From Scyliorhinus canicula (lineage: Eukaryota), in assembly GCF_902713615.1 (NCBI RefSeq), contig NC_052159.1, positions 29,253,709 to 29,317,708 on the forward strand: 64,000 nt of DNA. The letters run 5' to 3'. Of the stretch, positions 1 to 54,765 are shown piece after piece; position 1 is the stretch's first letter; each line of letters begins with the position of its first letter. The position numbers were made by a program, and so were the translations under genes. The notes beneath the pieces were generated by a model, which had not been told where the DNA came from, made no database searches, and saw only the letters and a program-made list of their open reading frames with translations.

Positions 1-2099
1 TGTTTATTGTTGGTGGGCGTAAATTCGGGAGAAAATGTGAAAAAGGAGAATAAAAATATTTTTTTTAAAAAAGAGCCTTTGAAAGGAGGGAGGGAAGCAG
101 TAAGGCATGATTATTGAGTGGAAACATGGTGCTAGGTAAACCTCTCTGGTATCTTGAATGCTCTAAAGAGGCCCTTTCCCTACAGAATATTAACCAGATC
201 AGTTTATAAAGAAGTGTAACTATTGTCAGGAAAATAAATCTTTATGCTTGAAATCTGCCTTTGATCAAATGCATGGAGAGAAAACAAATAGTCTCCGGAG
301 GAATACTTGGTAAAATAATCATGAATTCCTTTTGATACACTTGAAAGGTTGTTTTCATGAGGTATAAAAAGGATCTATAGCACTTTTCTGTTGAACCTTT
401 ATAAATTCGGTAAGATTCCCAGTCAGTTGTGCAATATAAAATAACTTGTAATCACTGGTGTTTACAAGATTTATAACAGCAAATGGATTTACAGGTAAAT
501 GTTGACTAATTGTGCTGTTGAATTGTAAGTAGCTTGACATTTAAAATGTCTGGCATGCCGGAACTAAGTAGTGCAATATCTTGCATTTATATAACTCCTT
601 TAACATAGGAAAAGTTGAAACACTTGATAGAAGCATATCAGAGAAATATTGATCCCAAGCCCAATGGAGATATTGAAAGGGATGATCAACTTGGTTAAGG
701 GAATGGATTTTAAAAGAGGAGAAAGAGCAAAGCAGCTGATGGTGCAAATTCAAGCTTAAGGCCTAGATAGCTCAAGGTAGCTAGCTGTGCCAGAGTTGTC
801 CTGTGAACTTTATGTGCACAGTTACTTCCTATAAATGAATGTACAAATCCTGGCATTCCTTGTGAACATAGAAATGAGTTGCTTGGTCATTATAAATATA
901 AGTATAATAATGGTGCAGTTCTGATTAAAATTTCAGTTTATGATCAACCTTGTTTATTCATGCATTGCTGAGTGAGCTTTTTTTCTAGCTCATAAATTGT
1001 TGATATCTAAAACATTTTATCTAATTGTAAATTGAGCAGAACATTAAATGTAATGTTCAAATTGGCTTTCCTCTTTCAATTCGAACTTGTGTTGCCTAAA
1101 ATATTTAAAGTTCTGATCTCTGTTTATTGTTGACACACACTGTAACCAGCACTTTGGGGCACTAAATTCGCAACATTCCGAATAGACAGGCTGAATGAAA
1201 AGGGGTTGAAGAGATACAGGAACACTGGGTAACTTGTGATTACAGCCATTTGATTACTTCTAGTTACAAGTTTGAAGGGATTGCTGAGAAACGCACTAAG
1301 CTTGGAGCAGCCAAACTCAATGGGGAAAGGACACATCTATGGTCTACCTGCCATAGTATACCAAGGGGCTGGAAACTGTAACTGGAAACTGGAAGCTGGT
1401 TGTATGTTTGTCATAGAATAGATGGTATAAATCTCATATTTTAGTTGTCTTCGCTACCTCAGAGTGCCGCATGTTGAATGGCAAGAACTTAAATTGTATT
1501 GCTCTTTTGGTAATTTCCCAAAATGAACTGTTCGGAAATGTACTTTTGGTGAATAAAATATATCTATGGAAAAAAAGACTGAGCCAAATAGCCTTATTCT
1601 GTAATAAAAGCAGATCTGAAATAAATAAAATGCTAGAGAAGCTGAGATCTGGCAGAAATAGTGAACATTTTGAGCCCAGTCTGATTCTTTGGAACCTTAT
1701 AACCTTATACGGGTCCTTTTTCTGTGCTGTATGTTTACATATTCTAGTTATAAACAAATTAGGAGGTAAATTGTTACAATTGAAAATATTTTTGAAAGTC
1801 CGAGCTATTCACTGTACGAAGATGTGCAAGGTGTAAATGACAACTCTTCAAACATTTAGATTGGACTCTGCATCGGAGACAGTGTGGTTCATTTGTGGCT
1901 TGATCCCGAATGCATTTCACACCATGCAGATGTCAGCTGCTAGATCAGCGCCTAATAATCTAATCTCACTGATCTCAACCTCTAATCAGCTATCATTGCT
2001 GGAAGTTAGGGACCAAAGGACTTCTGCAGAGCCACCTGATTAGAACAAAGAACAAAGAAAATTATAGCACAGGAACAGGCCCTTCGTCCTTTCCAGCCT

Positions 2100-5021
2100 G
2101 CGCCGATCCAGATCCTTTATCTAAACCTGTCTCCTATTTTCCAATGTCTACTTCCCTCTGTTCCCGCCCATTCATATACCTGTCTAGATGCTTCTTAAAT
2201 GATGCTATCGTGCCCGCCTCTACCACCTCCGCTGGTAAAGCGTTCCAGGCACCCAGCACCCTCTGCGTAAAAAACCTTTCCACGCACATCTCCCTTAAAC
2301 TATCCCCCTCTCACCTTGAAATCATGACCCCTTGTAACTGACACCCCCACTCTTGGGAAAAGCTTGTTGCTGTCCACCCTGTCCATACCTCTCATAATTT
2401 TGTAGACCTCAATCAGGTCCCCCCTCAACCTCCGTCTTTCCAACGAAAACAATCCTAATCTACTCAACCTTTCTTCATAGCTAGCACCCTCCATACCAGG
2501 CAACATCCTGGTGAACCTCCTCTGCACCCTCTCCAAGGCATCCACATCCTTCTGGTAATGTGGCGACCAGAACTGCACGCAGTATTCCAAATGTGGCCGA
2601 ACCTATACAACTGTAACATGACCTGCCAACTCTTGTACTCAATACCCCGTCCAATGAAGGCAAGCATGCTGTATGCCTTCTTGACCACTCTATCAACCTG
2701 CGTTGCCACCTTCAGGGTACAATGGACCTGAACTCCCAGATCTCTCTGCACATCAATTTTCCCCAAGACCCTTCCATTGACCATATAGTCCACTCTTGAA
2801 TTTGATCTTCCAAAATGCATCACCTCTCATTTGCCTGGATTGAACTCCATCTGCCATTTCTCTGCCCAACTCTCCAATCTATCTATATTTTGTTGTATTC
2901 TCTGACAGTCCTCCTCGCTATCTGCAACTCCACCAATCTTAGTATCATCTGCAAACTTGCTAATCAGACCACCTATACCTTCCTCCAGGTCATTTATGTA
3001 GATCACAAACAACAGTGGTCCGAGCACGGATCCCTGTGGAACACCACTAGTCACCCTTCTCCATTTTGAGACACTCCCTTCCACCTTATCCATCTAGCTA
3101 GTACACCCTGAACCCCATACGACTTTTTCCATCAACCTGCCATGGGAAACCTTATCAAACGCTTTACTAAAGTCCATGTATACGACATCTACAGCCCTTC
3201 CCTCTTCAATTAACTTTGTCACTTCCTCAAAGAATTCTATTAGGTTTTTGTAAGACATGACCTTCCCTGCACAAAACCATGCTGCCTATCACTGATAAGT
3301 CTATTTTCTTCCATATGTGAATAGATCCTATCCCTCAGTATCTTCTCCAACAGTTTGCCTACCACTGACGTCAAGCTCACAGGTCTATAATTCCCTGGAT
3401 TATCCCTGCTACCCTTCTTAAACAAAGGGACAACATTAGCAATTCTCCAGTCCTCCGGGACCTCACCCGTGCTCAAGGATGCTGTAAAGATGTCTGTTAA
3501 GGCCCCAGCTATTTCGACCCTCGCTTCCCTCAGTAACATGGGATAGATCCCATCCGGTCCTGGGGACTTGTCCACCTTAATGTCTTTTAGAATACCCAAA
3601 ACCTCCCCCTTCCGTATGACAACTTGACCGAGAGTGTTTAAACATCCATCCCTAGCCTCAACATCCGTCTTGTCCCTCTCCTTTGTGAATACCGATGCAA
3701 AGTACTCATTAAGAATCTCACCCATTTCCTCTGAATCCACGCATAAATTCCCTCTTTTGTCTTTCAGTGGGCCAATCCTTTCTCTAGTTACCCTCTTGCT
3801 CCTTACATACGAATAAAATGCTTTGGGATTTTCCTTAACCCTGTTAGCCAAAGATATTTCATGACCCCTTTTAGCCCTCTTTATTGCGCGTTTGAGATTC
3901 GTCCTACTTTCCCGATATTCCTCCAAAGCTTCTTCAGTTTTGAGTTGCCTCGATCCTATGTATGCTTCCTTGTTCATCTTAGCTAGTCTCTCAATTTCAC
4001 CCGCCATCCATGGTTCCCTAATCTTGCCATTTCTATCTTTCATTTTCACAGGAACATGTCTGTCCTGCACTCTAATCAACCTTTCCTTAAAAGACTTCCA
4101 CATTTCAAATGTGGATTTACCCTTAAACAGCTGCTCCCAATCCACATTCCCTAGCTCCTGCCGAATTTTGTTATACTCTGCCTTTCCCCAATTTAGCACT
4201 CTTCCTTTCGGACCCCTCTTGTCCTTGTCCATGAGTATTCTAAAACTTACGGAATTGTGATCGCTATTCCCAAAGTAATCACCGACTGAAACATCAACCA
4301 CCTGGCCGGGATCATTCCCCAATACCAGGTCCAGTATGGCCCCTTCCCGAGTTGGACTATTTACATACTGCTCTAAAAAACTCTCCTGGATGCTCCTTAC
4401 AAACTCTGCTCCATCTACGCCTCCAACACTACACAAATCCCATTCAATGTTGGGGAAGTTAAAATCTCCAATCACAACCACCCTATTGCTCCTACATTTT
4501 TCTATAATCTGTCTGCATATTTGTACCTCTACTTCATGCTCGCTTTTGGGAGGCCTGTAGTAAAGTCCCAACAATGTTACTGCACCCTTCCTATTTCTCA
4601 GTTCCACCCATATTGCCTCAGTGCTCGAATCCTCCATCGTGCCCTCCTTAATCACAGCTGTGATATCATCTCTGACGAGTAAAGCAACTCCTCCACCCCT
4701 TCTACCTCCCTCTCTATCCCTCCTGAAGCATCTATACCCTGGGATATTCAGTTGCCAGTCCTGCCCTTCCCTCAACCAAGTCTCAGTAATACCAATAGCA
4801 TCATATTCCCAGGTACTGATCCAAGCCCTAAATTCATCTACCTTACCTGCTACACTTCTCGCATTAAAACAAATGCACCTCAGACCACCTTTGCGTTCAT
4901 CGTCTATTCCCTGTCTACTCTTCCCCTTAGTCACATTGAGTTTATTGCCTCGTACCTTTTTAGTCGCTGCTTCTTTACTGACCTCTAACTTTCTAATCTG
5001 GTTCCCATCCCCCTGCCACAT
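2100..5021 (-). pseudogene. CR1 ORF2 (APE endonuclease + reverse transcriptase), disrupted
   Basis: Motifs FNARS, ITETW, GDFN, SDHN, KSPGPDG, NYRPVSLTS, GVPQGSVLGP, FADD and LEYCVQFWSP are spread over ORFs 3240-5039, 2827-3093, 2464-2823 and 2300-2590. There are frameshifts and a small deletion near 3088. Confidence 0.9.
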
Positions 5022-5968
5022 TAGTTTAAAACCTCCCAAACAGTGTTAGCAAAAGCACCCCCTAGGACATTGGTTCCAGTCCTGCCCAGGTGTAGACCAT
5101 CCGGTTTGTAATGGTCCCACCGCCCCCAGAACCGGTTCCAATGTCCCAAAAATCTGAACCCCTCCCTCCTGCACCATCTCTCAAGCCACGTATTCATTCT
5201 GACTATTCTTGAATTTCTACTCTGACTGTCCCGTGGCACTGGTAGCAATCCTGAGATTACTACCTTTGAGGTCCTACTTTTTAACTTATCTCCTAACTCC
5301 CTAAATTCTGATTGTAGGACCTCATCCCTTTTTTTACCTATATCGTTGGTGCCTATATGCACCACGACAACTGGCTGTTCACCCTCCCCCTTCAGTATGT
5401 CCTGCAGCCGATCGGAGACATCCCTGACCCGAGCACCCGGGAGGCAACATACCATTCGGGAGTCTCGTTTTCGACCACAGAAACGCCTGTCTACTCCCCT
5501 TACAATTGAATCCCCTATGACTATAGCCCTGCCAGTCTTTTTCCCGCCCTTCTGTGCAGCAGAGCTAGCCACGGTGCCATGAACCTGGCTACTACTGCCT
5601 TCCCCTGGTGAGTCATCTCCCCCAACAGTATCCAAAACGGTATACCTGTTTTGGAGGGAGATGACCGCAGGGGGCACCTGCACTGCCTTCCTGCTCTTTC
5701 TCTGCCTTTTGGTCACCCATTCCCTGTCTCCGTCAGCAATCCTAATCTGCGGTGTGACCAACTCACTGAACGTGCTATCCACGACCTCCTCAGTATCGCG
5801 GCTGCTCCAAAGTGAGTCCATCCGCAGCTCCAGAGCCGTCATGCGGTCTAACAGGAGCTGCAGCTGGACACACTTCCCGCACGTGAAGAAGTCAGGGGCA
5901 TCAGCCGCGTCCCTGAACTCCCACATTGCGCACGAGGAGCATAACACGGGTCTGGGATCTCCTGCCAT
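5021..5968 (-). CDS. CR1 ORF1p: N-terminal CxxC...CxxC zinc finger/leucine zipper plus SGNH/GDSL esterase domain
   Basis: Intact 315-aa ORF with CSSC...CGKC, a Leu heptad stretch, and the SGNH blocks IGDSIVR, HIGTNDI and DGLHL. Confidence 0.9.
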   Translation of the reverse strand: MAGDPRPVLCSSCAMWEFRDAADAPDFFTCGKCVQLQLLLDRMTALELRMDSLWSSRDTEEVVDSTFSELVTPQIRIADGDREWVTKRQRKSRKAVQVPPAVISLQNRYTVLDTVGGDDSPGEGSSSQVHGTVASSAAQKGGKKTGRAIVIGDSIVRGVDRRFCGRKRDSRMVCCLPGARVRDVSDRLQDILKGEGEQPVVVVHIGTNDIGKKRDEVLQSEFRELGDKLKSRTSKVVISGLLPVPRDSQSRNSRIVRMNTWLERWCRREGFRFLGHWNRFWGRWDHYKPDGLHLGRTGTNVLGGAFANTVWEVLN

Positions 5969-6441
5969 TTTTACCCTTTACCTTAACTGATTACAAATAT
6001 AGTATCAAATAATTAATAAGTGAAAGGAATAAAGATTTTACTTACCAATCACAATACTCACCAACACATGAAGAGTTAAATTTCTCCCAGCAACTGCTAA
6101 TTGGAGCACTTTCCTTGCCAGCCAATCAGGTCACTGCTTTGCTGCGATGTCACCCTTCAAGGTAAGTTTTTAAAGAGATAAACTTACCTTCCCTTACCTT
6201 ACCTTACCTTTGGAAATAAATGACTCTCAAAGAAAAAACAAAAAATGTGAATACATGATAGGATGGTCAATATCTGTAAGTGGAAAAGGTAGATAGATTC
6301 TTTACATTCTGGGGGTGTGAAATTTGCCTACATTATTGAGCTTCAGGGCCATGTTTATTATACTTAATTCCATTCCCTCCCGGTTCGTAAAGGTACTATT
6401 GAACACGAGTGCTAAAATGAGAATATAATTTGTATACCTAC

Positions 6442-6956
6442 CAGCGCCGGCCCTAGGGTTGCTGGCGCCCCCGGCAAGCTGAACTTCGGCGCCCTTGAGG
6501 GGGGGGGGGGGGGGGCGGGGGGGGGCGGGGGGGGCGAGGGGGGGGGCGGCGGGGGGGAGGGGGCGGGGCCGAGGGGGGGGGTGGGGAGCGGGGGGGGTGG
6601 CGGGGGGGGGGGGGGGGCCGGGGGGGGCCGAGGGGGGGGGGGGGGAGGGGGGGGGGGCGGAGGGGGGGGGGGGGAGGGGGGGGGGGGCCGGGGGGGCCGA
6701 GGGGAGGGGGCGGGGCCGAGGGGGGGGTGGGGAGCGGGGGGGGGTGGCGGGGGCCGGGGGGGGCGAGGCAGGGGAGGGGGGGCGGACCCGAGGGGGGGTG
6801 GGGGGCGGACCCGAGGGGGGTGGGGGGGGGGGGGGGGGGGGGCGGACCTGGGGGAGGGCGGCCACCGCGCATGCGCGGGACCCGAGTCTCTGGCGCCCCT
6901 TAGCACATGGCGCCCCGGGCGACTGCCCGAGTTGCCGGTGCCTTGAGCCGGCCCTG
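6442..6956. mobile_element. hAT-type MITE with internal G-rich minisatellite
   Basis: TIRs CAGCGCCGGC / GCCGGCCCTG (one mismatch). Perfect 8-bp TSD ATACCTAC at 6434-6441 and 6957-6964. Confidence 0.88.
6498..6856 (+). repeat. G-rich degenerate minisatellite (GGGGCGGACCCGAGGGGG-like units)
   Basis: Long G runs interrupted by C, CGA and CCGA. This tract produces all the Gly-rich and Pro-rich ORFs at 6302-7022. Confidence 0.9.
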
Positions 6957-7946
6957 ATACCTACCACTCTGGGGCAGGTTGGTGGGGATGGCAGCGGGAT
7001 TAAAATCATCTTGGGTTTGTGAACTTGTGTACTCTTTTCAAGCTAACAGACCACAGTCATGTTTGAACTGTTGGACACTTGAGGCATCGAGAATCACAGC
7101 CATAATTGTAGGACACTTTAATTCTGCCAATATACATGGAAAATGGTGAGAAGGTGGAGGGTTCTTTGCAATCTATTCAAGATTGTTTTTTTAGTGCAAG
7201 GGATGGATTTCAAATTTTTGGCCACATAGAACACTGATTTAGTATGAAGATAATATATTCCTGTTTATCCTGTAAATTCAGTTATATTTGCATCAGAATC
7301 AAACTAGTCTGTATAGTAAAGTAGAATATGTTACACTGTTGACCTGTGACCATATTGTGATATTTAAGCTGATCACACTGAAACTTGGTTTAACGCAGTG
7401 TAATAGTTGAACGAGAAAATGTGTGCATATCTGTTTGGTTCAAGTTGGATTTTTGGCAAAGTCTTTCATAGGACAATGTTACTAGGCAGCAGGCATCTTT
7501 CCTGCATTATCCAAAGAATAGCATTGGTCGTATGGAAAGTTGTTTCGGGTCATTGAGTATATTAGACTAATTACAGTGGACTGGTGTGGAGCAATAGAGA
7601 TCCGGGTTAAGTTCTGTTCATTGTGCAATGGAGTATTTATACCTGCTCTTGTAATTGAGTTGCATATCTGGAGGTAACTTAAAAGTAGGATGCATGATGA
7701 ACGTTCTGTAGTTAAACATGAACTACATATTTTTGAAGTTTGCCTACTTACTAGTCAGTACTTTGCCTTTTATAGAGATTTCTGTTGCGTTCTGTGTTAA
7801 TATCCAGGATGTGGCTGCTTGCTCCATAAGTCAACAATTGGAAAACAAGTTCTATAGTATTTAAATGCTTGCAGCAGAAAACTGAGTGAATGGATTTAGT
7901 TTATCTAAAGCTGTACTTTCTTTCTCAGAGTTCCTAGTCTTCCAAC

Positions 7947-17337: not shown

Positions 17338-20300
17338 CTATCTTTGAGCCAGGAAGTCCAGAAAAGGCTGCCATCGTTTATAGAACCCTAGTATTGATCC
17401 TCTCAGGGCAAATTTGACCCTTTCCAATTTTATAAATCCTGCCATGTCACTGATCCAGGTCTCCACACTTGGGGGGGGCCTCGCATCCTTCCACTGTAGC
17501 AAGATCCTTCGTCGGGCTACGAGGGACGCAAAGGCCAGGACACCGGCCTCTTTCGCCTCCTGCACGCCCGGCTAAACCGCCACTCCAAAAATCGCGAGTC
17601 CCCACCCTGGTTTGACCCTGGATCCAACCACCCTCGACACCGTCCCCGCCACCCCCTTCCAGAATTCTTCCAGTGCTGGGCATGCCCAGAACATATGGGC
17701 GTGGTTCGCTGGACTCCCCGAACATCTGGTGCACCTGTCCTCACCCCCAAAGAACCTACTCATCCTAGTCCCGGACATGTGGGCCCGGTGCAGCACCTTA
17801 AATTGGATGAGACTAAGCCTCGCACATGAGGAGGAAGAGTTGACTCTCTCCAAGGCATCCGCCCAAGTTCCGTCCTCTATCTGCTCCCCGAGTTGTTCCT
17901 CCCATTTAGCCTTCAGCTCCTCCACTGACGACTCCTCCACCTCCTGTATTACCTTATAGATGTCAGACACCTTCCCCTCTCCGACCCACACCCCCGAAAG
18001 CACTCTGTCCATCGTCCCCCGCGAGGGCAGCAAAGGGAATCCCTCTACCTGTCGCCTAGCAAACGCTTTTACCTGCAAGTATCTGAACATGTTCCCTTGG
18101 GGAAGCCCAAATTTATCTTCCAGTTCCCCAGGCCCGCAAACCTCCTGCCAATAAACAGGTCCCTCAATTTACTGATGCCCACCCTCTGCCACCCCCTAAA
18201 TCCCCCATCCCTGTTCCCTGGGATGAACCGATGGTTGCCACCCAGTGGAGCCTCCATCGAGCTCCCTGTTTCCCCCCTGTGCCGCCTCCACTGTCCCCAG
18301 ATTCTTAGGGTCGCCGCCACCACCGGGCTCGTGGTAAACCTCTTGGGGGAGAGCGGCAACGGCGCCGTTACCATGGCACCCAGGCTCGTACCTCTACATG
18401 ACGCCATCTCCATTCTTTTCCTCCACCCCCCCCCCCCCCCCCCCCCCCCAAATCACCCATTTACGCACTATTGACATATTGGCTGCCCAATAGTACCCCA
18501 GAAGGTTGGGCAGCGCCAGCCCGCCTCTATCCCTCCCTCGCTCCAGGAACACCCTCTTCACTCTCGGAGTCCCATGTGCCCACACAAAGCTCAAAATACT
18601 GCTAGTCACTCTCCTAAAGAAGGCCCTGGGGATAAAGATGGGCAGGCACTGAAAGAGGAACAAGAACCTCGGAAGCACCGTCATTTTGACGGACTGTACC
18701 CTCCCCGCCAACGATAATGGCAGCATGTCCCACCTCTTGAACTACTCCTCCATCTGATCTACAAGTCTTGTGAAATTATGTTTGTGAAGAGTCCCCCAGT
18801 CCCTGGCCACCTGCACCCCCAGGTACCTAAAGCTCTCCCCTGCCCGCCTAAGCGGGAGCCTACCAATTACTTCCTCCTGGTCTCCAGGGTGCACCACAAA
18901 CACCTCACTCTTGCCTAAATTTAGTTTATAACCTGAAACGGTCCCAAACTCAGCTAGCAGCTCCATCACCCCCGGCATCCCTCCCACCGGGTCCGCCACA
19001 TACAGTAACAGGTCATCGGCATACACCGACACCCTATGTTCCTCCCCACCTCGCACCAAACCTCTCCACCTCTCTGAATCCCTCAACGCCATTGCCAGCG
19101 GCTCGATTGCCAGTGCAAACAACAAGGGGGACAGGGGGCAACCCTGCCTGGTCCCTCGGTAAAGCCGGAAGTACTCCGACCTCCTCCCATTCGTGGCCAC
19201 GCACGCCATCGGGGCCTCATATAGCAGCCTTACCCATCTAATGAACCCTTCACCAAATCCAAACCTCCCCAACACCTCCCATAAGTACCTCCACTCTATC
19301 GAACGCCTTCTTCGCATCCAGCACCACCACTATCTCTGCCTCCCTCTCAATCGCCGGCAACATAAGGACATTCAACAATCTCCGCACATTCGTGTTCAGC
19401 TGCCTTCCCTTCACAAAACCTGTCTGGTTCTCGTGCACAACCCCTGGCACACAGTTCTCTATCCTGGTGGCCAGGATTTTTGCCAGCACCTTGGCATCTA
19501 CGTTGAGGAGAGATATGGGCCTGTGTGAACCACACTGCTGGGGGTCCTTGTCCCTCTTTAAAATTAACGAGATCAGCGCCCGCGATATCGTCGGGGGCAA
19601 AGTTCCCCCTTCCCATGCTTCGTTGAGTGTCCGCACCAGCAAGGGGCCCACTAGGGCCACAAACTTTTTATAAAATTCCACCGGGAACCCATCCGGCCCC
19701 GGTGCCTTCCCTGACTGCATCTGTCCGATCCCCTTAACTAGCTCCTCCAGCTCAATTGGCGCAACCAACCCCTCCACCTGGCCTCCTGCACCTTCGGGAA
19801 AGAAAGCCCGTCGAGGAACCTCTCTATTCCCCTCCTCTCCCTCGTTGGCTCCGACCGGTACAGTTCCCCGTAAAAGTCCTTGAAGACCTCATTCACCCCT
19901 TCCGCACCACATTCCCACTCTTGTGTCTCACTCCAGCAATTTCCTTAGCCGCATCCCGCTTGCGGAGCTGATGAGCCAGCATCCTACTCGCCTTTTCACC
20001 ATGTTCGTACACTGCCCCTTGTGCCTTCCTCCACTATGCCTCCGCCTTTCTAGTGGTCAGCAAATCAAATTTAGCCTGCAGGCTGCGCCTCTCCCCCAAC
20101 AGTCCCTCCTCTGGTGCCTCTGCATACCTCCTGTCTACCTCCAGCATCTTTCCCACCAGTCTATCCCTCTCGCTCCTCTCCCTGTGTGCCCGGATGGATA
20201 TCAGCTCCCCACGAATCACTGCCTTCGGGGCTTCCCAGACCACCCCCACCTGAACCTCCCCTGTATCATTCACCTTGAGGTACCCCTCAATACTTGCCCG

Positions 20301-21095
20301 GACCCTCCTACACACCACCTCCGCCAACAACCCCACATCCAACCGCCACAACGGGCGCTGGTCCCGCACCTCTCCCAGCTCCAACTCCATCCACTGCGGA
20401 GCGTGGTCGGAGATTGCAATGGCCGAATACTCGGCCTCCTCCACTCTCGGAATCAGTCCCCTACTCACCACGAAGAAATCTATCCGAGAGTAGACCCTAT
20501 GTACGTGGGAGAAGAAAGAGTACTCGCGTGCCCTCGGCCTCACAAACCTCCACGGATCCACCCCACCCATCTGGTCCATAAACCCTCTCAGTACCTTGGC
20601 CGCCGCCGGCCTCCTACCCGTCCTAGAGCTGGACCGATCCAGTGAAGGATCCAACACCGTATTGAAGTCCCCCCCCCCCCAATGATCAGACCTCCCGCCT
20701 CCAGATCCGGGACCGGTCCCAACATACGCCTCATAAAGCCCGCATCGTCCCAATTTGGGGCATACACACTGGCAAGTACCACCTTCTCTCCTTGTAGCCT
20801 GCCCCTAACCATAACATACCTACCCCCCTTATCCGCCACCACCTCCGATGCCTCAAACAACACATTTTTCCCCAACAGAATCGCCACTCCCCGGTTCTTC
20901 ACATCCAACCCAGAGTGGAAAACCTGCCCCACCCATCCCTTCCTCGGACAGACCTGGTCCGCCACCTTCAGGTGGGTCTCCTAAAGCATTGCCACATCTG
21001 CCTTTAGCCCCTTCAGATGAGCAAGTACCCTCGACCGCTTCACCGGCCCATTCAATCCTCTCGCATTCCAGGTGACCAACCGAATCAGAGGGCGT
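17338..21095 (-). pseudogene. L1 ORF2 (APE endonuclease, RT, C-terminal zinc knuckle), multiply frameshifted
   Basis: VTWNARGL, VYAPN, GGDFN, YSRIDFF, ISDH, KAPGPDGF, RPISLLNVD, GTRQGCPLSPLLF, YADD and CTRC..HMFWAC. Confidence 0.92.
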
Positions 21096-21790
21096 CCCGC
21101 CCCCCTCCCCCATCGACTAGCCATAGCCCGTCGACTGCGTGCCCCAGGCCAGCACCCCCTGCCTGACCCAGTCCCCACAGCGACAACACCTCACCTCTGT
21201 CCCACCAGCTCCTTCCTGACCCTACCAGCAGCAACCCGGTATTCCCCTTTTCCCACCCACCCCCCACCCCCCAAGGCTAGGAACCCTCCTAGCCGCGAAC
21301 CGTCCTCCATTGTACTTCCGTGGGTCAGCTAACTTCTGCAGACCCCGGAAACTCCCGCCAATAACCCGACCCCTCCCAAAGTGGGATCATCCCTGAATCT
21401 ATCCCCCCTCCAGGCACCGCTCCAGCGCGGGGAAGAACCAGTTAAGGCCCCGCCTCCCCCCGTCATCGTCTCCACCCCCCAGCCCTGCAGCGCGGGAAAC
21501 CAGAGGAAAGCCCGTGCTTTCGCACTGCCCCACCACACCCTTCTGGCGCAGCTCCCAAATACCAGCCCCATTCCATACCCCCAACCTGACATAGAATACA
21601 ACAAACCCCCCCAACCCTCCCCGCAAGATACAAAACTCAAACAATGCCCCACAGCAAAAAAAAATAACAGAACAACACCCCCATAAATAACCATATCAAA
21701 ATTGCAAAAGTACAAATGAAAGAGAACACAGCAACAGCAGAAACCAGCAATAAAGCATTACAACCGACCCCGCAACCCCCAACCCCTAGT

Positions 21791-22631
21791 TCAAGTCCAG
21801 TTTCTCCGTCCGCACGAAGGCCCACGCCTCCTCCGGGGAATCAAAATAATACTGTAATGCCGGTCCGAATAAGTTGCCCACAGGCGCGCGGGCTGCAACA
21901 TTCCGAACTTTATCTTTTTCCTGTAAAGCACCTCTTTCGTCCGATTAAATCCGGCGCCACTTAGCCACCTCCGCACTCCAATCCTGGTAGATCCGTACTA
22001 CCCCATTCTCCCAATTGCTGCTCTTCACCTTCTTGGCCCAGCGCAGCACACACTCCCGATCACTGAACCGGTGGAACCTCACCAGCACCGCACGCGGGAG
22101 TTCATTCTCCTTAGGCCTCCTGGCCAGTACTCTGTGTGCTCCCTCCAGCTCCAAGGGCAGATGGAAAGACCCGGCCCCCACTAGCGAGTTCAGCATTGTA
22201 GCCACGTAGGTTGTCAGGTCCGACCCCTCCAGCCCCTCCGCAAGGCCCAAGATCCGCAGATTTTTCCGTCTCATGCGGTGATCAAGCTCCTCGAAGCGTT
22301 CCTGCCACTTCTTGTGGAGTGCCTCGTGTCCCTCCACCTTACTCACGAGGATCCCGGCCTCCTCTCGTTCAGTGGCCTGCGTCTGCAACTCCTTGATGGC
22401 AGCACCCTGGGTTGTCTGAATCTCCGACAGCCTTCTGTTCGTTTCCTGCAGAGAGCTCAGTACCTCAGCCTTGAAGTCTGCAAAACAGCGCAGGAGAGCA
22501 GCTTGTTGCTCCAGGGCCCACTGCTTCCACTCCTCTGGAGCTCCGCCGGCCGCCATCTTGGATTCCTTCCCCTGTTTTTTCTGGGGAGCTGCTGCCGTTT
22601 TTTCCCCCTTTTGGCTCCGAGTTCGAGTCAT
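21791..22631 (-). pseudogene. L1 ORF1p (coiled coil, RRM, CTD), frameshifted near the C-terminus
   Basis: RRKNLRILGLAEGLEG, LEGAHR, PRAVLVRFHRF, RIYQD, then FGMLQPARL in a second frame. Confidence 0.88.
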
Positions 22632-23493
22632 GGACTGTGGGGAAAGTCGATCAGCACACCTTCTCCCTCCAGGAGACGTCGAAAAATTTCCGTTTTGCTC
22701 TCTAAAAAGAGCCGAAAAGTCCGTTTAAAACGGAAGCTCCCAAATGTGTGGCTTCCTACGTCATCGCTGCCACCGGAAGTCAGGAGTACATATTGTTAAA
22801 CAACTGATTAATAAAGCTCTGGATTCTGCGTCAGACATCCATCTTGTGCTGCTATCCTACCGAGCAACTCCATTATCAACAGGTCTGTCACCAGCACAAA
22901 TGCTAATGAATAGAGATCTGAGAACAATGTTACCTGCGTTGCAGTTTCCAAATCATAATCATCTTCCAGTGTTACAAAAAATGCAACAGCTACGGGATTG
23001 TCAAAGATTATATTATTACATGCATGCCATCACCCTGGACTCATTATCTCAAGATGACACCGTTTGGATCAAAATACCTGATGGAGGTTGGCCAACTCCT
23101 GCAAAGATCATTAGACAAGCAGCACTCAGATCATACATAATCAAGACAACTAAAGGTAACATCCTACGTAGAAATCGTAGACAACTCGAGAAGACTCGAC
23201 CACAGAATTTTTACGGATCTACATATCAACGAAACTATCTTTCAAGATACGCTAATGAACAATCAAAGCAACACTGACATGCAAAGAACTGTCAAGAAAT
23301 CAGAATCACCACCTCGTTCACTAAGAAAATCTATGAGAAGAAGAAAGCAACCTAATAGACTTGTAAATGCTTCACAGGCAATTTGTGTATTTGTTATTCA
23401 TTTTGTTCGATACAAAGTTATACATGTTTTGGTTTACCTATTCTACATTTTCGCTTTGTTAAATCAAGAAAATGTTTTTTTTAAAAGGGGGGA

Positions 23494-26530: not shown

Positions 26531-27790
26531 TATATTGTGACTTACCGTCTTGTTAGAAATTAACATGGATTGTTTTGAATACCCTTCAATCTGTTTTTGT
26601 AAACAATTAAAAATATAATTGAAGTGTTCCTCTAAATATGTTCTAATATTTCAAGTCCAGTAAAAGCAAATCGCTTAATAAACAAAAATGCTTAAAGCAA
26701 AGGTGCATTTTTTCCTTCTCTTCCAATCTCCCTATAGGACAGTGAGTTGAAGTCTACTTAATTGAGTTCCTATCCTACAAGTTGAAATGGCTGAATGTGG
26801 TCATAGCTAATTGTTTAAGGAACCTTGAGGGGATGTTTTCGACCCCATCCTTCAAATTGACATTTTGATGAAATGTGTGTTAAGCGAAGAAAAAGGACTT
26901 GTGCATTGTGAGGAGACCAAGATCTCACCCTGTATTTCCTTGGAGGCAACTCTCATGTGGCTGCACAGACACAATTCGGAGAGCCATCTGCAATTCATAA
27001 CTCAGTTTGGCCAACTGTGGTGTGCTTGTCTGCTCGGACAAAGGACCCTGCAACCTTCCTTTCAAGCCTTAATGGTTCAGACATTTAACCATCTTGCAGG
27101 CTCAGGTAACGGGTACACATCCCTTGTCAAAGATAACCTGGAATGGTGGGAATCGTGACATGGACCTCCTAGCTTATGGAACCAGTTATATTGTCTTGCT
27201 GTACTGTAAACTCGGCCTGCTGTTTTATCATATAATTAACAGCATCGCAGAAAAGGAACTCTGCCCAGGTTGAATATCTAGCCCCATGCACACTTTCTGT
27301 TGGAACTTTTGTACCATCACCTATAAGACTGATAACTTCAAGTGTGCCTCTCTCATCGTGTGAAGTTAACTCCACCAGAAAGTTGAATTAATCACATGGT
27401 TTGCAGCCCATCAACCTCCATGGAAGAATACCGCATTGGTCTTTGATTCTGGGCTCTGGAACCCTAATGAAACAATTATTTTTCTTTGTGGTTTTTGAAC
27501 TGTAAATATTTATTTTACCGTGCTTTAAGGAGAGCTCGAGTGTCTTTGAAGCATTTTTTGTCCCCTCCAAATCGTTGACCTCTCGTTGAGAGTTGAGAAA
27601 AAAATATGACCTTTTTAAGACGTGTTTTTAGGTATATTGTTTTGACATTCAAGGGCAGGCTGTGTTTCTTGCATGCAAAATTGAAGAGATCGAGAATGGT
27701 TTGCAAATCTGGTGCAGAATGGTCAATGACACTGCAGCCACCTGCAAATTGTAGTTCATGGATGTCTACGGTGGTCAGTTTAGTTTTGGT

Positions 27791-27975
27791 ACTTCCGGTA
27801 CAGCTCTGTAGGGGGAAGACGTGCAGCAGACCATCGAAGGCCTGGAAAGTGAAGTGAAAGCGCAGGAAAAAACAATTCTGGAGTTTCAGGGATTTTTCTT
27901 TTGTTTTGTTTGTTTGTTTAGTCCGGGGGGTATTTTTATGTTTTTTTATATTTAAAAAAAAGAAAACCCACGCAG

Positions 27976-28014
<39 letters not shown>

Positions 28015-31000
28015 AAGGTAGGTACAGGGGGGGAGAGCCACAAGGGACCATGGGAGAAATAAGTGTGCGAGAGGATCCGGAGAACATAAAAAAAAGGTGC
28101 GGGAGGAACCGGAGCCGGAGAGGAGCAGGTGAATTGAGAGCAGGGTAAGGAACAGCAGAAGGGAAAGAAAGAGACAGACAGATGGCTGGAGGAAAGAAAA
28201 ACACCAAGGTGACGGGACAGTGATACGCAAGCAGCAGCAACGGGGGTAAGGCACATGAATGCCGGGCGCGCAGGCAGGCAACCACACAAGATGAGACGGA
28301 TGTACAGGTGAGCCTGAAAGGGAAAACGATGGAGGACCAAGCAGCGGAGCGTGAGCAGAACGCAGCAAAGGAGTGCCAAGCAATGATGAAGGAAACGACG
28401 CACCAAATGCAGCAGACCATCGAAGGCCTGGAAAGGGAAGTGAAGGCGCAGAAAAAAACAATTCTGGAGTTGGAGAGGGCCGCCTTGGACCAGAGTGACA
28501 GGGTGATAACCCTAGAAGCAGAGGTCAAAAGGTTAGTAACGGCACAGGGGAGCCGAAGAGGGAAAGTGGAGAATCAGGAAAATAGGTCCAGATGGCAGAA
28601 TATTAAAATAGTGGGTCTGCCAGAGGGGATAGAGGGCAGAGACCCAGCAGGCTACATCACCCAAATTATGGGAAGCTAGTGGGAAAGGAGGTATTCCCAA
28701 ACCCACCGCGAGGTTCAGGTTTAGCACAGGGCTAAAGAGTTGGCTTTTAAAGCAGACCAAGGCAGGCCAGCAGCACGGTTCAATTCCCGTAACAGCCTCC
28801 CTGAACAGGTGCCGGAATGTGGCGACTAGGGGCTTTTCGCAGTAACGTCATTTGAAGCCTACTTGTGTCAGTAAGCGATTTTAATTTCATTTCAAATAGA
28901 CAGGGCGCACAGGTCGCTCCGACGTAAGCCCAAAGCTGGGGACCGGCCCAGAGCAATTATTGCGAAGCTGCACCAGTTCCAAGACTGGGAGAGAATCCTA
29001 AAGTGGGCCTGGCAAACGAAACAGCACGTGTGAAGGGCAGACCATAAGGGTGTATCAAGACATTGGGGTGGACCTAGCCCAAAAAAAAGAGCTGAATTCA
29101 GCAAGGCGAAATCAGCACTGCATAAAAGCAAGGTAAAATTTGGGATGTTATTCCCAGCCAAACGCTGGGTAACATTTGAGGGGAAAGAGCTGTATTTCAA
29201 CACCCCAGTGGCGGCTGATGAGTTGGTTAGAGCGAACAAGCTGGGGGACGAGCTCACGCAACCGCAATGAAAGACATGGGGGCGGAAAAGGAAGGGAAAA
29301 CTAGAACAAAGAGCGGAGAACAGACCGCAAACAAGGACATTGGACTGATGAACTGTGCACAAGTGTGTTATGCCTTGCACGGGACTGTGCTGTCTTGTTT
29401 CAGAACTTGTCTCCTCTCTCAATGCAATGGTGGGTGGGGTGGAGCAAGGGAAATGAGGGTGAGGAAAGCAAACAGGAGGGCGAGACAAGGGCCAGTAGGG
29501 GAAAGGTTAAACAGGGCTAGAATTGGGCGAATACTGGGAGGAGGGCCAGCGCGGGAGGGCAGGATGGAAGGAGGGCCACTGCGCCCCTCTCAGGGGAGGG
29601 GGGAGCATCTGACACAAGGAGAAGGGGGGGGGGGAGAAGCAGGAGGGGGACAACGGGACAGGGGCTGGGAGGGAGGGGGGAGAGAGGAGTCTGGGGGAGA
29701 GCGCAGGACAAAAGAGAAGGGTGAGATAGTGAAGCAGTACAGACGTAGGCCTCGGCGGGCATGGAACAGGGCAAGGAACCAAGAGGGTGCCGCAAACAGC
29801 CACTCGAGGGGGCGTCAGGGCGGAGGGAGACCCCGGAGCGCAGGGATGCACCCGTGTGGCGTGTACACAGCTGGTGACCTTATTGAGTGCCCCCTGGGTA
29901 AAAGGAAACCCCTGAGCACTGGGGCCCGATCCCATGGTGAGAGCGGTAACCATGGCCATTTTGGACGGCACCCGAGCAAAGGGGCGCGTCCACCAGGTAA
30001 GTATGGGTGATCCCACAGGACCGGGGGGTCAGAAACCCCCCAAAGATTGTTACCTGGAACATAAGGGGACTCAACGGCTCAGTGAAAAGATCCAGAGTGT
30101 TCGCCCACCTACGAAGCCTAAAAGCAGACATAATCTACCTACAAGAGACGCAGCTGAGGGAGAAGGACTGACTGCTGGTAAGGAAGGGCTAGGTGTGATA
30201 GACGTACCACTCATGCTACGGGACGAGGGCTAGGGGTAGCAATATTAATTAGCAAAAGGACGAACTTTATGGGAACCAAGACAGTTACGGACCCGGGGGA
30301 AGGTACGTCATTGTCAGTGGTGTCCTGGAAGGGACACCTGTCCTACTGGTAAATGCGTACGCTCCCAACTGGGACGACTCTGAATTCATAAAGAAAACCA
30401 TGGCGGAAATCCCCGACCTTGACACACACCGACTAATTATGGGGGGGGGGGGGGGCGCACGTGACTTTAACTGCGTGCTGGACCCACTAACCGCCCGATC
30501 AAACCCCAGAATGGGGAAAACGTCTGGTATGGCTAGGGAGCTAGGGGCCTTCATGGACAGATGGGGGCGGTGGACCCATGGAGTTTCCTGCACCTGGGAG
30601 AAAAGGAGTACTCGTTCTTTTAGCAGGTGCACAAGGTACACACTCATTTCGACTTTTTTGCAGTGGGGAAATCAGTGCTTCCAGGGATCACGGGAACAGA
30701 CTACTCCGCGATTGTTATCTCCGAGCATGCTCCACATTATATGGATGTCAGGTTGGAGACAGGCCGGGCCCAGCGCCCCACATGGAGGCTGGACCTCTTG
30801 GCTGACAAGGCCAGGACCTCCTGGCCGACGAGGCTTCCTGCCAAAACGTATCGCAGGCCATAGGCGATTATGTTAGTAACAACCAAAACGGGGAGGTCTC
30901 GCCCTCCCAAGTTTTGGGAGGCACTGAAGGCCGTGATCAGAGGGAGATCATAGCCTACAAGGCACGTAGAGATAGGGAAGAGAGGGTGGCCAGGCAACAG

Positions 31001-32567
31001 CCACTGGACTCCATTCTAGAAGTCTATAGAAAGTACTCCGAAGCAACGTCCATAGAGCTGCTGGCGGAGGGGAAAAAGCTGCAAATGGACTTTAACTTGC
31101 TATCCAATAGGAAAGCAGTGTACCAACTCCGCCAGACACGGTGGATCGTCTATGAACATGGAGACCAGGCTGGCCGCCGATTGGCTCACCGGCTGAGAAA
31201 GCAGGCAGCCACGAAATAGCACAGGTTAAGGATAGCAAAGGCAGACTAGTAACAGAGCCAAAGGAGGTCAATTGGGCATTTGAGATCTTCTGCCGGAGAT
31301 TGTAGACCTCTGAGCCCCCAGATGGGGATGCAGGAATGAAGCAGTACCTAGACAGACTGGAACTACCAGTTGTGGGGGAACACAGGTGGGGGGGAGCTGG
31401 AAGCACCAATAGACCTGGAGAAGTCTTGGAGAGCATCAGCTCCATGCAGGCGGGGAAGGCACCGGGACCCGACGGGTTCTCGGCAGACTACTACATAAAA
31501 TTCGCACCAGTCCTAGTCCCACACCTAAGGGACATGTTCGCGGACTCACTGGCAGGGGGCACCCTGCCCCCAACGCTAGCGCAGGCCACAATCTCACTAA
31601 TACCCAAAAAAGATTAAAGACCTGACAGAATGTGGATTATACAGACCCATTTCACTGCTGAACATGGATGTGAAAATGTTCACAAAGGTCCTAACCAAAA
31701 GGCTGGAGGGCTGTGTACCAGAGGTGCCGTTTGCAGAGGACCAAACAGGCTTTGTCAAGGGTAGGCAACTCATAGTGAACATCAGGCGGCTGCTGAATGT
31801 GATAATGAGAACACCAGAGGTGATCGTCTCCCTGGATGCAGAAAAGGCCTTTGACAAGGCCTATGATAGAGTCGAATGGAGCTACCTCCTTGAGGTACTG
31901 GAACGGGTTGGGCTAGAAGCGGGATTCACTGCCTGGGTGAGGCTCCTGTACATTGCTCCCAAAGCGAGTGTCCGAACTAACACCACCTGCTCTGAATACT
32001 TCCAGCTACAGAGAGGAACAAGACGGGGCTGTCCCCTCTCCCCACTCTTGTTTGCGCTAGCGAGCGAACCCCTGGCGATAGCCCTGCGGAACGCAAAAAG
32101 CTGGAAGGGAATCCGGAGAGAAGACAGAGAGCACAGAGTCTCACTCTATGCAGGTGACCTGCTCCACTATGTCTCAAAGCCACAGGAGGGACTGACGGCA
32201 ATACTGCAAATACTGAAAGAGTTTGGAACGTTCTCGGGCTATAAACTTAACCTGGGCAAAAGCGAGACATTCCCAGCGAACCCAAAAGCGAGAGGGACCG
32301 AGCTGAAGGTTCCAAACTCTTTCAGTATTTGCATAAGAAACCACGAGAAAAGGAAGGGTGCTGAAACCAATGTGGGGGGAGGAAAGGGGGATATCATAGA
32401 CTGATCCAGAGGGCAGCCAAATGTACGTACAGTTATTCAAATGAAGGACAAAACAAACCTCTCTATAAAATAAAGCAAATTAGCACGGGCAAGGAAAATG
32501 TAATGTATATAAGTAACAACTGTTGATAAATATCCGAAAAGCCAATAAAAAGATTTCCAAAACAAAA
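27791..32567 (+). mobile_element. L1/Tx1-like LINE, second family, with the 3' part of ORF2 deleted
   Basis: 5' end ACTTCCGGT, ORF1 (ENRSRWQNIKIVGLPEGIEG), ORF2 motifs (VNAYAPN, KAPGPDGF, GTRRGCPLSPLLF, YAGD, YKLNLGKS), AATAAA at 32544, A-rich tail, and 14-bp TSD AGTTTAGTTTTGGT at 27777-27790 and 32568-32581. Confidence 0.92.
28710..28894 (+). mobile_element. Short tRNA-derived SINE, second family, with (CATTT)n tail, inside L1 ORF1
   Basis: GGTTTAGCACAG..GGTTCAATTCCC..GGAATGTGGCGACTAGGGGCTTTTC..GAAGCCTACTTGTG..CATTTCA. Further copies occur in this window. Confidence 0.85.
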
Positions 32568-39682: not shown

Positions 39683-39763
39683 GTTACCCTGCAGGTTACC
39701 CGACAACTGCTCCTGCCTATACTGCCAATATGTATGCTAGTGGCAGTCCTGGATATCCTCCTG
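39683..39763 (+). CDS. FAM168A: FAM168A coding exon 2 (G-YPAGYPTTAPAYTANMYASGSPGYPP)
   Basis: Acceptor tcctttccag, 81 nt, phase 1-1, donor CTG|gtaagc. In frame with the previous exon. Y/P/A-rich peptide resembles human [27 protein letters not shown]. Confidence 0.93.
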
Positions 39764-53200: not shown

Positions 53201-54765
53201 CTTACCAATAATGTTTTTACTTCTCGTTTTATTCCTTTTAGTATTACTGGGCCTATTTACTGAGCTCCCCTCAGTCACTGTACTGTCACCCTTTTTGATT
53301 TTTGACGATGGCTTCTCTGCGTTACACTGTCCCCCTTACATCCTTTTGCTTCTGTCCCTGTTTTACTACCTTCCAACTTCCTGCATTGGTTCCCATCCCC
53401 CTGCCACATTAGTTTAAACCCTCCCCAACAGCTCTAGAAAACACCCCCCCTAGGACATCAGTTCCAGTCCTGCCCAAGTGCAGACCGTCCGGTTTGTACT
53501 GGTCCCACCTCCCCCAGAACCGGTCCCAATGCCCCAGGAATTTGAATCCATCCCTCTTGCACCATCTCTCGAGCCACACATTCATCCTATCTGTCCTGAC
53601 ATTCCTATTCTGACTAGCTCGAGGCACTGGTAGCAATCCTGAGATTACTACCTTTGAGGTCCTACTTTTCAGTTTAACTCCTAACTCCTTGAATTCAGCT
53701 TGTAGGACCACATCCCGTTTTTTTAAACCTATATCATTGGTGCCTATGTGCACCACGGCAGCTGGCTGTTCATAACCCCGCAGAATGTCCTGCAGCCACT
53801 CCGAGACATCCATGACCCTTGCACCAGACCCATACCATCCTGGAGTCTCAATTGCGTCCGCAGAACCGCCTGTCTATTTCCCTTACGATTGAGTCCCCTA
53901 TCACTATAGCCCTGCCATTCTTCTTCCTGCCCTGCTGTGCAGCAGAGCCAGCCACGGTGCCATGAACCTGGCTGCTGCTGCCTTCCCCTGGTGAGCCATC
54001 TCCCTCAACAGTATCCAAAGCGGTATATCTGTTTTGCAGGGAGATGACCGCAGGGGACACCTGCACTGCCTTCCTACTCTTGCTCTGCCTTTTGGTCACC
54101 CATTTTCTATCTCCCTCAGTAACTTTCACCTGCGGTGTGACCAACTCGCTAAACGTGCTATCCATGCTGTCCTCAGCATCGCGGATGCTCCAAAGTGAGT
54201 CCATCCGCAGCTGCAGAGCCGTCACGCGGTCTAACAGGAGCTGCAACTGAACACACTTGCACGTGAAGGAGCCAGGGACAGTGGATGTGTCCCTGAGCTC
54301 CCACATCGCACACGAGGAGTATGACACAGGTCTGGGATCTCCTGCCATGTCTTAAACCTTAGGTAAACTTATACAACTACAATTACAAAAAAACGAAAGA
54401 AAAAATAAATAAATTAGACACTGAAAAGAAAAACTACTTACCAGGGTTAAAAGCACCTCCTCCCCACCCAGCTTCGAATTCCCACCTAGCTTCAAATTCC
54501 CAAGCTCACTCTTGGTTGTGCCTCACTCTGGCTGTGTCTTGTCTGGCTCACTGGGAGAACTCACCCAGGGTCTCAGATGCTGTCTGGTTCTCTCCCTGCA
54601 GATTAAAAGTTACCGGCCAGAAGAAAGAAAGAGAACAAAACAGTAGGGGAAAAGCACCTTCTCCCACTCTGTACCAAATTACCAAGTTCCAAATTTCCAC
54701 TCTGGATGTGTCTCACTCCGGCTGTGTCTCCTCGACTTGCGCAAAGCTTACTGAGTGCGCTTTCT
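50218..54765 (-). mobile_element. CR1 LINE copy 2 with ORF1 and internally deleted ORF2, interrupted by an antisense copy
   Basis: ORF1 53409-54348 (frameshifted; GDSI, HIGTNDI, DGLHL), ORF2 fragments, and tail TTCTTATGTTCTTA. An endonuclease/linker deletion joins at ~52773. Confidence 0.92.
50755..51643 (+). mobile_element. 5'-truncated young CR1 of the same subfamily, inserted antisense into copy 2
   Basis: Uninterrupted 244-aa RT C-terminal ORF (50817-51551) and tail TTCTTATGTTCTTA. The host sequence resumes at 51643. Confidence 0.92.

What the first reader, a model, noticed from the sequence alone, without database searches (positions are those of the whole stretch)
5000..5040. Dual recoding cassette at the CR1 ORF1/ORF2 junction: -1 slippery UUUAAAC fused to a UAAUG stop/start
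Seen: on the - strand ORF1 ends ...GAG GTT TTA AAC TAA and ORF2 is in the -1 frame (TTT AAA CTA ATG TGG CAG). The heptamer T TTA AAC (5030-5024) is correctly phased as X XXY YYZ in the ORF1 frame. The stop overlaps the ORF2 ATG as TAATG (5023-5019), followed by G-rich GTGGCAGGGGGATGGGAACC. Established: UUUAAAC is the coronavirus -1 frameshift heptamer, and UAAUG drives termination-reinitiation in influenza B M1/BM2 and the Bombyx SART1 LINE. Inference: this CR1 family may make ORF2 as a free protein by reinitiation, as an esterase-endonuclease-RT fusion (gag-pol style) by -1 frameshifting, or both. I do not know of this being described for vertebrate CR1.
Basis: partly seen in the sequence, partly recalled or inferred. 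Interest (0 to 1): 0.78.

Follow-up and report, generated by a model that had tools for sequence, protein, structure and literature searches.

The report
Ancient slippery site in CR1 LINEs
This jumping gene (a CR1 LINE) ends its first gene on a seven-letter slippery sequence that related elements keep from sharks to crocodiles, so its second gene is likely made when ribosomes slip back one base, whereas the overlapping start codon beside it occurs in only some shark families.

Summary
In detail: T TTA AAC (5030-5024) is in phase with ORF1, TAATG follows, and ORF2 is in the -1 frame. The two halves of the proposed cassette fare differently. The heptamer is deeply conserved: 53 of 57 near ORF1 homologues end Leu-Asn-stop, and all 8 published consensus junctions found through an independent upstream anchor read T TTA AAC. 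Distant esterase ORF1s end in peptides that fit the other two most shift-prone heptamers (protein evidence only). TAATG is present in 3 of 18 consensus junctions; sister shark families have TAGTG, TAGTT or TAATT. No hairpin or pseudoknot follows; a G-run about 10 nt downstream is kept instead (14 of 18, by eye). Best reading: -1 frameshifting makes an esterase-endonuclease-RT fusion (0.68); reinitiation is at most a lineage-limited extra. No protein product was observed. Ten library searches found no report for vertebrate CR1, but older CR1 papers were not held, and a review states a -1 shift for Dictyostelium TRE5-A/TRE3-A. The scan noted the same idea before on other DNA.

The parts
2040..6200 (-). 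Near full-length CR1 LINE, copy A (ends approximate); dead copy
   Evidence: 5' UTR matches the published consensus ScyCan_CR1-16 by eye
5021..5968 (-). ORF1, 315 aa: Cys-rich N-terminus, long helix, linker, SGNH esterase with GDS, GTND and DGLH motifs; ends Leu-Asn-stop at the end of the last helix
   Evidence: PF13472; 4C1B, E 3e-42
5024..5030 (-). Slippery heptamer U UUA AAC, phased X XXY YYZ in the ORF1 frame
   Evidence: conservation
5019..5023 (-). ORF1 stop TAA overlapping an ORF2-frame ATG (TAATG); weak Kozak context; not conserved across families
5004..5017 (-). G-rich element GG-CA-GGGGG-AT-GGG; first GG 6 nt and the five-G run 10 nt after the heptamer; candidate stimulator, predicted two-tier quadruplex
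3240..5045 (-). ORF2 frame (-1 to ORF1): variable linker, APE endonuclease, start of RT; broken at about 3250
53387..53418 (-). Junction of a second CR1 copy (copy B): 32 nt identical to 5030-4999
53409..54348 (-). ORF1 of copy B (broken), 78-79% amino-acid identity to copy A ORF1

Best explanation
This is the ORF1/ORF2 junction of a CR1 LINE, where a conserved U UUA AAC heptamer likely makes a minority of ribosomes slip back one base just before the ORF1 stop, which would yield an esterase-endonuclease-RT fusion beside abundant free ORF1 protein. Shown: the phasing, the open -1 frame, the conservation of the heptamer and the absence of an overlapping AUG in most families. Inferred: tandem slippage of tRNA-Leu and tRNA-Asn onto UUU AAA. 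Inferred and weaker: the pause comes from the G-run 6-10 nt downstream (a two-tier quadruplex, a bound protein or rRNA contact), perhaps helped by the adjacent stop. Speculative: the fusion co-assembles with free ORF1p through the N-terminal coiled coil, setting a gag/gag-pol-like ratio. The AUG is one of several Met/Val/Ile codons tolerated at that position and is not required.
For: ORF1 ends Leu-Asn-stop in 53 of 57 near homologues and 55 of 103 representatives at 50% identity, down to 28% identity in a bird. The ending sits 25-39 residues after the catalytic Asp, so it follows the stop, not the fold, and the solved ZfL2-1 esterase chain ends before those two columns. The residue before Leu-Asn is E/K/Q/M/W (codons that cannot end in T) in 1 of 55, against 17 of 55 one position earlier. 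In DNA, 8 of 8 junctions found by an upstream anchor have T TTA AAC, and synonymous alternatives never hit a CR1 junction (0 of 14, 0 of 13, 0 of 22 shown hits). Stops vary (TAA, TAG, TGA). [quoted passage not shown] Gln precedes Gly-Asn in 9 of 10 and never precedes Leu-Asn. A review names those three AAC heptamers among the most shift-prone (PMC5009743). Ray gene models read through as GFKL-D-V and GFKL-N-L, with no Met.
Against: No product, reporter or ribosome data. No stable hairpin (z -0.27 to -1.12), no 3' pairing partner for the G-run within 400 nt and no Rfam match, so the usual second element is missing. Two-tier quadruplexes are weak: the tested stimulators were G3 tracts whose effect tracked stability (PMC3919603), and GU/GA repeats did not stimulate shifting without ligand (PMC12710887 abstract). 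The profile was built from Leu-Asn-ending proteins, which favours such hits. 22 of 48 non-LN representatives fit no class, and the Phe-Leu/Phe-Phe classes were added after seeing the data. No DNA was obtained for the Gly-Asn and Lys-Asn groups. Buried helix positions -6, -7, -9 also lack E/K/Q/M/W. The 32-nt identity between copies A and B is not exceptional: a 47-nt run lies in ORF1.
Confidence: 0.68

Rival explanations
1. Dual use in the shark families that have TAATG: frameshifting makes the fusion and termination-reinitiation at the overlapping AUG also makes free ORF2p.
For: TAATG occurs in both window copies and in two different shark lineages (ScyCan_CR1-1a; SquAca_CR1-17a and -6c), while TG follows TAA in only 4 of 63 places in copy A. 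It is the only Met ahead of the endonuclease. Some substitutes (GUG, AUU) are near-cognate starts, which TURBS-type reinitiation tolerates (PMC10275272). No variant row among the 40 of 103 shown falls at 4993-5030.
Against: Absent from 15 of 18 consensus junctions, including a sawfish family identical downstream but reading TAGTT and catshark CR1-14 with TAGTG. UGGGA lies 96 nt upstream in both copies on Trp-Asp codons; the one at 15 nt is private to copy A. No downstream structure of the kind SART1 needs.
Confidence: 0.2
2. ORF2 is made only as a free protein by termination-coupled, largely AUG-independent reinitiation as in L1 and SART1; the conserved string is a termination or pausing context and the G-run a reinitiation element.
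For: Reinitiation is the described route for L1 and SART1 (PMC2881922; PMC5009743). The heptamer always abuts the stop in vertebrate CR1, and no classical frameshift stimulator was found.
Against: It does not explain why the alternatives in distant ORF1s match other X XXY YYZ sites, nor the Lys-Asn group where 10-15 codons separate the site from the stop, nor the fixed first base of the heptamer.
Confidence: 0.15
3. The string is kept for a reason other than decoding: a C-terminal Leu-Asn peptide motif, an RNA signal for packaging or template switching, or shared ancestry through ORF1 swapping at this point.
For: Leu is the last residue of the final helix. Copies A and B share 78% in ORF1 but 40-55% in ORF2, and identity collapses at 4999, so swapping can explain the shared block within sharks. 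The same string occurs in two dogfish CR1 5' UTRs.
Against: A peptide motif cannot fix synonymous bases; the solved esterase lacks these residues; swapping does not explain conservation from sharks to crocodilians at 28-40% protein identity.
Confidence: 0.1
4. The frames are joined in the RNA, by splicing or polymerase slippage, rather than on the ribosome.
For: Gene models that join the two frames exist (P0035, P0096), but they can be copy-level lesions or prediction artefacts.
Against: Among 3226 RNA reads laid, none supports any of the 15 of 16 joints shown, and none of the 12 of 16 indel rows shown lies at the heptamer. The T4 and A3 runs are short for slippage.
Confidence: 0.03

Closest known systems
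Viral and retroviral -1 frameshift at U_UUA_AAC (coronavirus 1a/1b type; gag-pol logic)
   Same: Same heptamer and phasing, structural ORF followed by a polymerase ORF in -1; U_UUA_AAC, G_GGA_AAC and A_AAA_AAC are named among the most shift-prone sites (PMC5009743, passages).
   Different: No predicted hairpin or pseudoknot 5-9 nt downstream; the stop follows at once; a G-run takes the stimulator's place; the host is a non-LTR element.
Dictyostelium TRE5-A and TRE3-A (APE-type LINEs)
   Same: A review figure legend says both need a -1 frameshift for ORF2 (PMC5911963, passage), so frameshifting in a LINE has precedent.
   Different: Different clade, host and ORF1; the primary papers and their shift sites were not seen.
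Bombyx SART1 and influenza B BM2 UAAUG stop-start
   Same: Identical UAAUG overlap with the second ORF in -1 (PMC3894237; PMC10275272).
   Different: Here the overlap is not conserved across the family, and neither a SART1-like downstream structure nor a well-placed TURBS motif was found.
Synthetic G-quadruplex-stimulated -1 frameshifting (Yu et al. 2014)
   Same: Quadruplexes 6-8 nt after UUUAAAC gave about 7% shifting in vitro (PMC3919603, passages); the predicted quadruplex here begins 6 nt after the same heptamer.
   Different: Those were G3 tracts in engineered constructs; this one could form two tiers at most and is untested.
Vertebrate esterase-type CR1 and ZfL2-1 ORF1p
   Same: SGNH esterase ORF1 plus APE-RT ORF2; all canonical vertebrate CR1s encode or cluster with esterase ORF1s (PMC13343379).
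   Different: The 2026 survey's main text has no occurrence of frameshift, overlap, stop codon or translation; L2-type esterases end without Leu-Asn.

Membership tests
Vertebrate CR1 LINE (esterase ORF1) | ORF1 with SGNH esterase | tested here: met
   PF13472 E 5.5e-14; 4C1B E 3.4e-42
Vertebrate CR1 LINE (esterase ORF1) | ORF2 with APE endonuclease then RT | tested here: met
   PF03372, PF14529, PF00078
Vertebrate CR1 LINE (esterase ORF1) | Match to named CR1 consensus sequences | tested here: met
   5' UTR matches ScyCan_CR1-16 and the junction matches ScyCan_CR1-1a, compared by eye
Vertebrate CR1 LINE (esterase ORF1) | RT phylogeny places it in the CR1 clade | not tested
   No RT tree was built
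Programmed -1 ribosomal frameshift site | X XXY YYZ heptamer phased in the upstream frame | tested here: met
   T TTA AAC at 5030-5024
Programmed -1 ribosomal frameshift site | Downstream ORF in -1 and open through the site | tested here: met
   Frame open from 5045 to 3243
Programmed -1 ribosomal frameshift site | Heptamer conserved beyond amino-acid needs | tested here: met
   8 of 8 independently anchored junctions; no synonymous variant at a junction; TGA-stop variants were not searched
Programmed -1 ribosomal frameshift site | 3' stem-loop or pseudoknot 5-9 nt downstream | tested here: not met
Programmed -1 ribosomal frameshift site | Alternative 3' stimulator (quadruplex, protein site) | tested here: inconclusive
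   Two-tier quadruplex predicted in both copies; 15-nt G4Hunter score in the top 0.1% of copy A, 25-nt score in the top 2.9%; G-run in 14 of 18 consensus rows by eye
Programmed -1 ribosomal frameshift site | Transframe product that depends on the heptamer | not testable with these tools
   Needs reporters, ribosome profiling or mass spectrometry
UAAUG termination-reinitiation (BM2, SART1) | Stop and start overlap as UAAUG | tested here: met
   5023-5019 and copy B
UAAUG termination-reinitiation (BM2, SART1) | Overlap conserved across the family | tested here: not met
   3 of 18 consensus junctions; TAGTG in ScyCan_CR1-14
UAAUG termination-reinitiation (BM2, SART1) | Upstream TURBS element (UGGGA core and its usual distance are recalled, not from a call) | tested here: inconclusive
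   UGGGA 96 nt upstream in both copies on Trp-Asp codons; flanking stem not tested
UAAUG termination-reinitiation (BM2, SART1) | Downstream RNA structure as in SART1 | tested here: not met
   No fold beyond shuffles
UAAUG termination-reinitiation (BM2, SART1) | ORF2 output depends on ORF1 termination | not testable with these tools
   Needs a reporter

The most novel reading that the evidence does not exclude
The dominant LINE of sharks, reptiles and birds decodes its RNA like a retrovirus: a -1 frameshift older than jawed vertebrates, swapped among all three top slippery heptamers in its relatives and driven by a natural short G-quadruplex instead of a pseudoknot, makes an esterase-endonuclease-RT polyprotein, while some shark families add free ORF2p from an overlapping AUG.
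Probability: 0.2. Interest if true: 0.85.

Novelty: new variant of a known kind. Interest (0 to 1): 0.64.

Why it matters
How LINE ORF2 is translated is called an open question (PMC3894237), and the described routes are reinitiation in L1 and SART1. CR1-group elements are the dominant retrotransposons of most vertebrates (PMC13343379 abstract). A conserved frameshift would mean that their RT carries the esterase at its N-terminus and that current ORF2 annotations start in the wrong place. It could also explain how an ORF1p without a defined RNA-binding domain (PMC3905857) joins the particle. It offers a 30-nt cassette that a dual-luciferase assay can test directly, and a candidate natural stimulator that is neither hairpin nor pseudoknot.

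Tried and rejected
No whole genome is held for this window. DNA scans for relatives failed: metagenome contigs, viral contigs (one search gave 3 distant hits of about 25% identity, not examined), plasmids; genome contigs gave 24 prokaryotic loci of 22-35% identity, not LINEs by their titles and not examined. No listed run that holds the stretch is on record as RNA: no RNA holder listed. The 32-nt identity between copies A and B was rejected as evidence (47-nt run elsewhere; mosaic ORF1/ORF2). The 18 junctions were found with the heptamer as search term, so they were not used to show heptamer conservation; the 8 are a subset of them found by another anchor. ORF2 N-termini from gene callers (37 hits) were uninformative because start choice is arbitrary. 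A search for longer ORF1 forms gave 4 hits, two fused gene models and no proof of a natural fusion. Hairpin, pseudoknot and Rfam searches were negative. The tree is the quick search only. Kojima 2005 and Kapitonov 2003 were not held. Sequence look-ups in earlier findings returned nothing.
Full report
Observation. On the - strand, ORF1 ends GAG GTT TTA AAC TAA, with T TTA AAC at 5030-5024, TAATG at 5023-5019 and a five-G run at 5013-5009. The -1 frame is open from 5045 and encodes an APE endonuclease and the start of RT. ORF1 is an SGNH esterase. The copy is dead, with ORF2 broken near 3250. Its 5' UTR matches the catshark consensus ScyCan_CR1-16 by eye. A second copy at 53418 has the same junction. 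That 32-nt identity is not strong evidence: a 47-nt run lies in ORF1, and the copies look mosaic, 78% alike in ORF1 and 40-55% in ORF2.

Protein evidence for the heptamer. Of 93 homologues, 58 aligned over the catalytic His block and 57 ended 22-42 residues later; 53 of these 57 end Leu-Asn. Named ones include sharks, rays, a chimaera, frogs and a bird. Of the 150 best representatives listed from 9814 profile hits, 109 aligned, 103 had such a tail and 55 end Leu-Asn. The profile came from Leu-Asn-ending proteins, which favours them. The ending occurs at tail lengths 25 to 39, and the solved ZfL2-1 chain stops before those columns, so the fold does not need it. The residue before Leu-Asn is E, K, Q, M or W in 1 of 55, against 17 and 20 of 55 at the next two positions; buried positions further up are also poor in these residues, so this is suggestive only.

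Covariation in distant relatives. Ten representatives end Gly-Asn, nine of them after Gln, which never precedes Leu-Asn. A clade carries Lys-Asn after Ser, Thr, Ala or Arg just past the last helix. These are the zero-frame readings of G GGA AAC and A AAA AAC, which a review lists with U UUA AAC among the most shift-prone sites (PMC5009743). Of 48 non-LN representatives 26 fit one of five classes and 22 fit none; shuffled tails give a mean of 6.7 and never 26 in 5000. Two of the five classes were chosen after seeing the data, relatives share labels, the proteins are unnamed (10 checked), and no DNA was obtained for them.

DNA evidence. The supplement of PMC13343379 holds about 1000 consensus rows, visible here to 400 nt each, of uneven quality and read by eye. 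A search for the heptamer plus stop gave 23 hits; 18 of the 22 shown are junctions, from sharks, rays, chimaera, bowfin, a teleost, coelacanth, frog, lizard and crocodilians, with TAA, TAG or TGA stops. Because that search selects for the heptamer, I anchored on the upstream Gly-Leu-His codons: of 17 hits, 8 show a junction and all 8 read T TTA AAC. Synonymous alternatives gave no junction in 14, 13 and 22 shown hits (3 hits unseen; TGA variants not searched). The chance value per lineage is 0.015. In reads laid on 4930-5190, none of the 40 of 103 variant rows shown lies at 4993-5030, depth in two DNA runs peaks there, and loose ends pile up at 4999-5000; the 63 hidden rows could include the block. 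RNA reads run about 15 to 1 in the element's sense if the library is stranded as usual, but internal priming could cause this.

The UAAUG. It appears in 3 of the 18 junctions, all in sharks. A sawfish family with the same downstream sequence reads TAGTT, a stingray family TAATT, elephant shark and catshark CR1-14 TAGTG. Ray gene models read through the site without Met. In favour of some role: TAATG is in two shark lineages, TG follows TAA in only 4 of 63 places in copy A, and this is the only Met before the endonuclease. UGGGA lies 96 nt upstream on Trp-Asp codons, and no downstream structure like that needed by SART1 was found.

The stimulator. There is no hairpin beyond shuffles, no pairing partner for the G-run within 400 nt and no Rfam match. 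A run of four or more G starts within 14 nt of the heptamer in 14 of 18 rows, and six rows have five G after a 10-nt spacer (by eye). ViennaRNA with quadruplexes allowed folds a two-tier quadruplex 6 nt after the heptamer in both copies. Engineered quadruplexes 6-8 nt after UUUAAAC gave about 7% shifting, scaling with stability (PMC3919603); GU and GA repeats did not without ligand (PMC12710887). A protein-bound or rRNA-pairing element, as in arteriviruses and alphaviruses, fits as well. The run also encodes Gly-Asp/Glu-Gly, so a protein role is not excluded.

Mechanism. Most ribosomes end ORF1 at the stop. A minority likely slip from UUA AAC to UUU AAA and continue into ORF2, giving a fusion of about 1300 residues (estimate from a 315-aa ORF1 and ORF2s of about 950-1000 aa). 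The esterase ORF1p class lacks defined RNA-binding domains and self-associates through a coiled coil (PMC3905857), so a fusion could tie it to the RT-bound RNA; this step is speculation. Confidence 0.68. Additional reinitiation in TAATG families 0.2 (not exclusive); reinitiation alone 0.15; a non-decoding role 0.1; RNA-level joining 0.03.

What is known. Ten searches found no paper on frameshifting at the vertebrate CR1 junction. The 2026 survey's main text lacks the words. The library omits most subscription papers; Kojima 2005 and Kapitonov 2003 were not held. I recall, without having seen them here, that 1990s descriptions of chicken, turtle and pufferfish CR1 noted closely spaced or overlapping ORFs, and they may have suggested a shift. 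A review legend states a -1 shift for TRE5-A and TRE3-A. Seen: passages of PMC5009743, PMC3919603, PMC10275272, PMC3894237, PMC2881922, PMC2734521, PMC4120745, PMC5006619, PMC5911963; passages and the Discussion of PMC3905857; abstract of PMC12710887; listing only of PMC12809536, whose title reports quadruplex-promoted frameshifting in human genes; passages, supplement parts 1, 29, 40, 43 and six supplement searches of PMC13343379. The uncut supplement could change the counts. Three earlier scan notes reach the same idea on other DNA; they are not counted as support.

Verdict. A real, deeply conserved slippery site at the CR1 ORF1/ORF2 junction, probably a programmed -1 frameshift, with an unusual G-rich element behind it. 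The UAAUG is a lineage-limited feature, so 'dual cassette' overstates it. New variant of a known kind; interest 0.64.

Noticed in passing
window 4999 and 53387 (- strand): Copies A and B are 78% alike in ORF1 protein but 40-55% in ORF2, and identity collapses right after the G-run; read loose ends pile up at the same place. This suggests ORF1/ORF2 swapping between CR1 families with a breakpoint at the junction.
   Followed up: partly
proteins P0185-P0273 (profile hits): Unnamed esterase ORF1s end in Gln-Gly-Asn or carry Lys-Asn, Phe-Leu or Phe-Phe after the last helix; sister proteins P0214 and P0259 differ as Ser-Lys-Asn versus Ser-Gly-Asn.
   Followed up: partly
PMC13343379 supplement rows SquAca_CR1-3 and SquAca_CR1-18: Two dogfish CR1 5' UTRs also carry the heptamer followed by a stop triplet and a G-rich string, about 130 nt ahead of ORF1; unexplained.
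   Followed up: no
window 52740-52780 (- strand): Copy B jumps from the endonuclease to the region just before RT, an internal deletion of roughly 950 nt.
   Followed up: no
window 6430-6960: A GC-rich insertion with long C-runs on the - strand, flanked by a 9-nt direct repeat seen by eye; the inverted-repeat search found no clear terminal arms.
   Followed up: partly
window 17500-23300 (-) and 27500-32400 (+): Two further non-LTR elements with endonuclease and RT matches, L1/Tx1-like by eye; their ORF junctions were not examined.
   Followed up: no
window 39652-39800 (+): A short stretch matches Pfam TCRP1 (PF14944), probably a host exon, so the window may lie within a gene's introns.
   Followed up: no
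proteins P0010 and P0100: CR1 ORF1 and ORF2 proteins are filed under Pseudomonas aeruginosa and Carnobacterium maltaromaticum, probably host DNA in bacterial assemblies.
   Followed up: no
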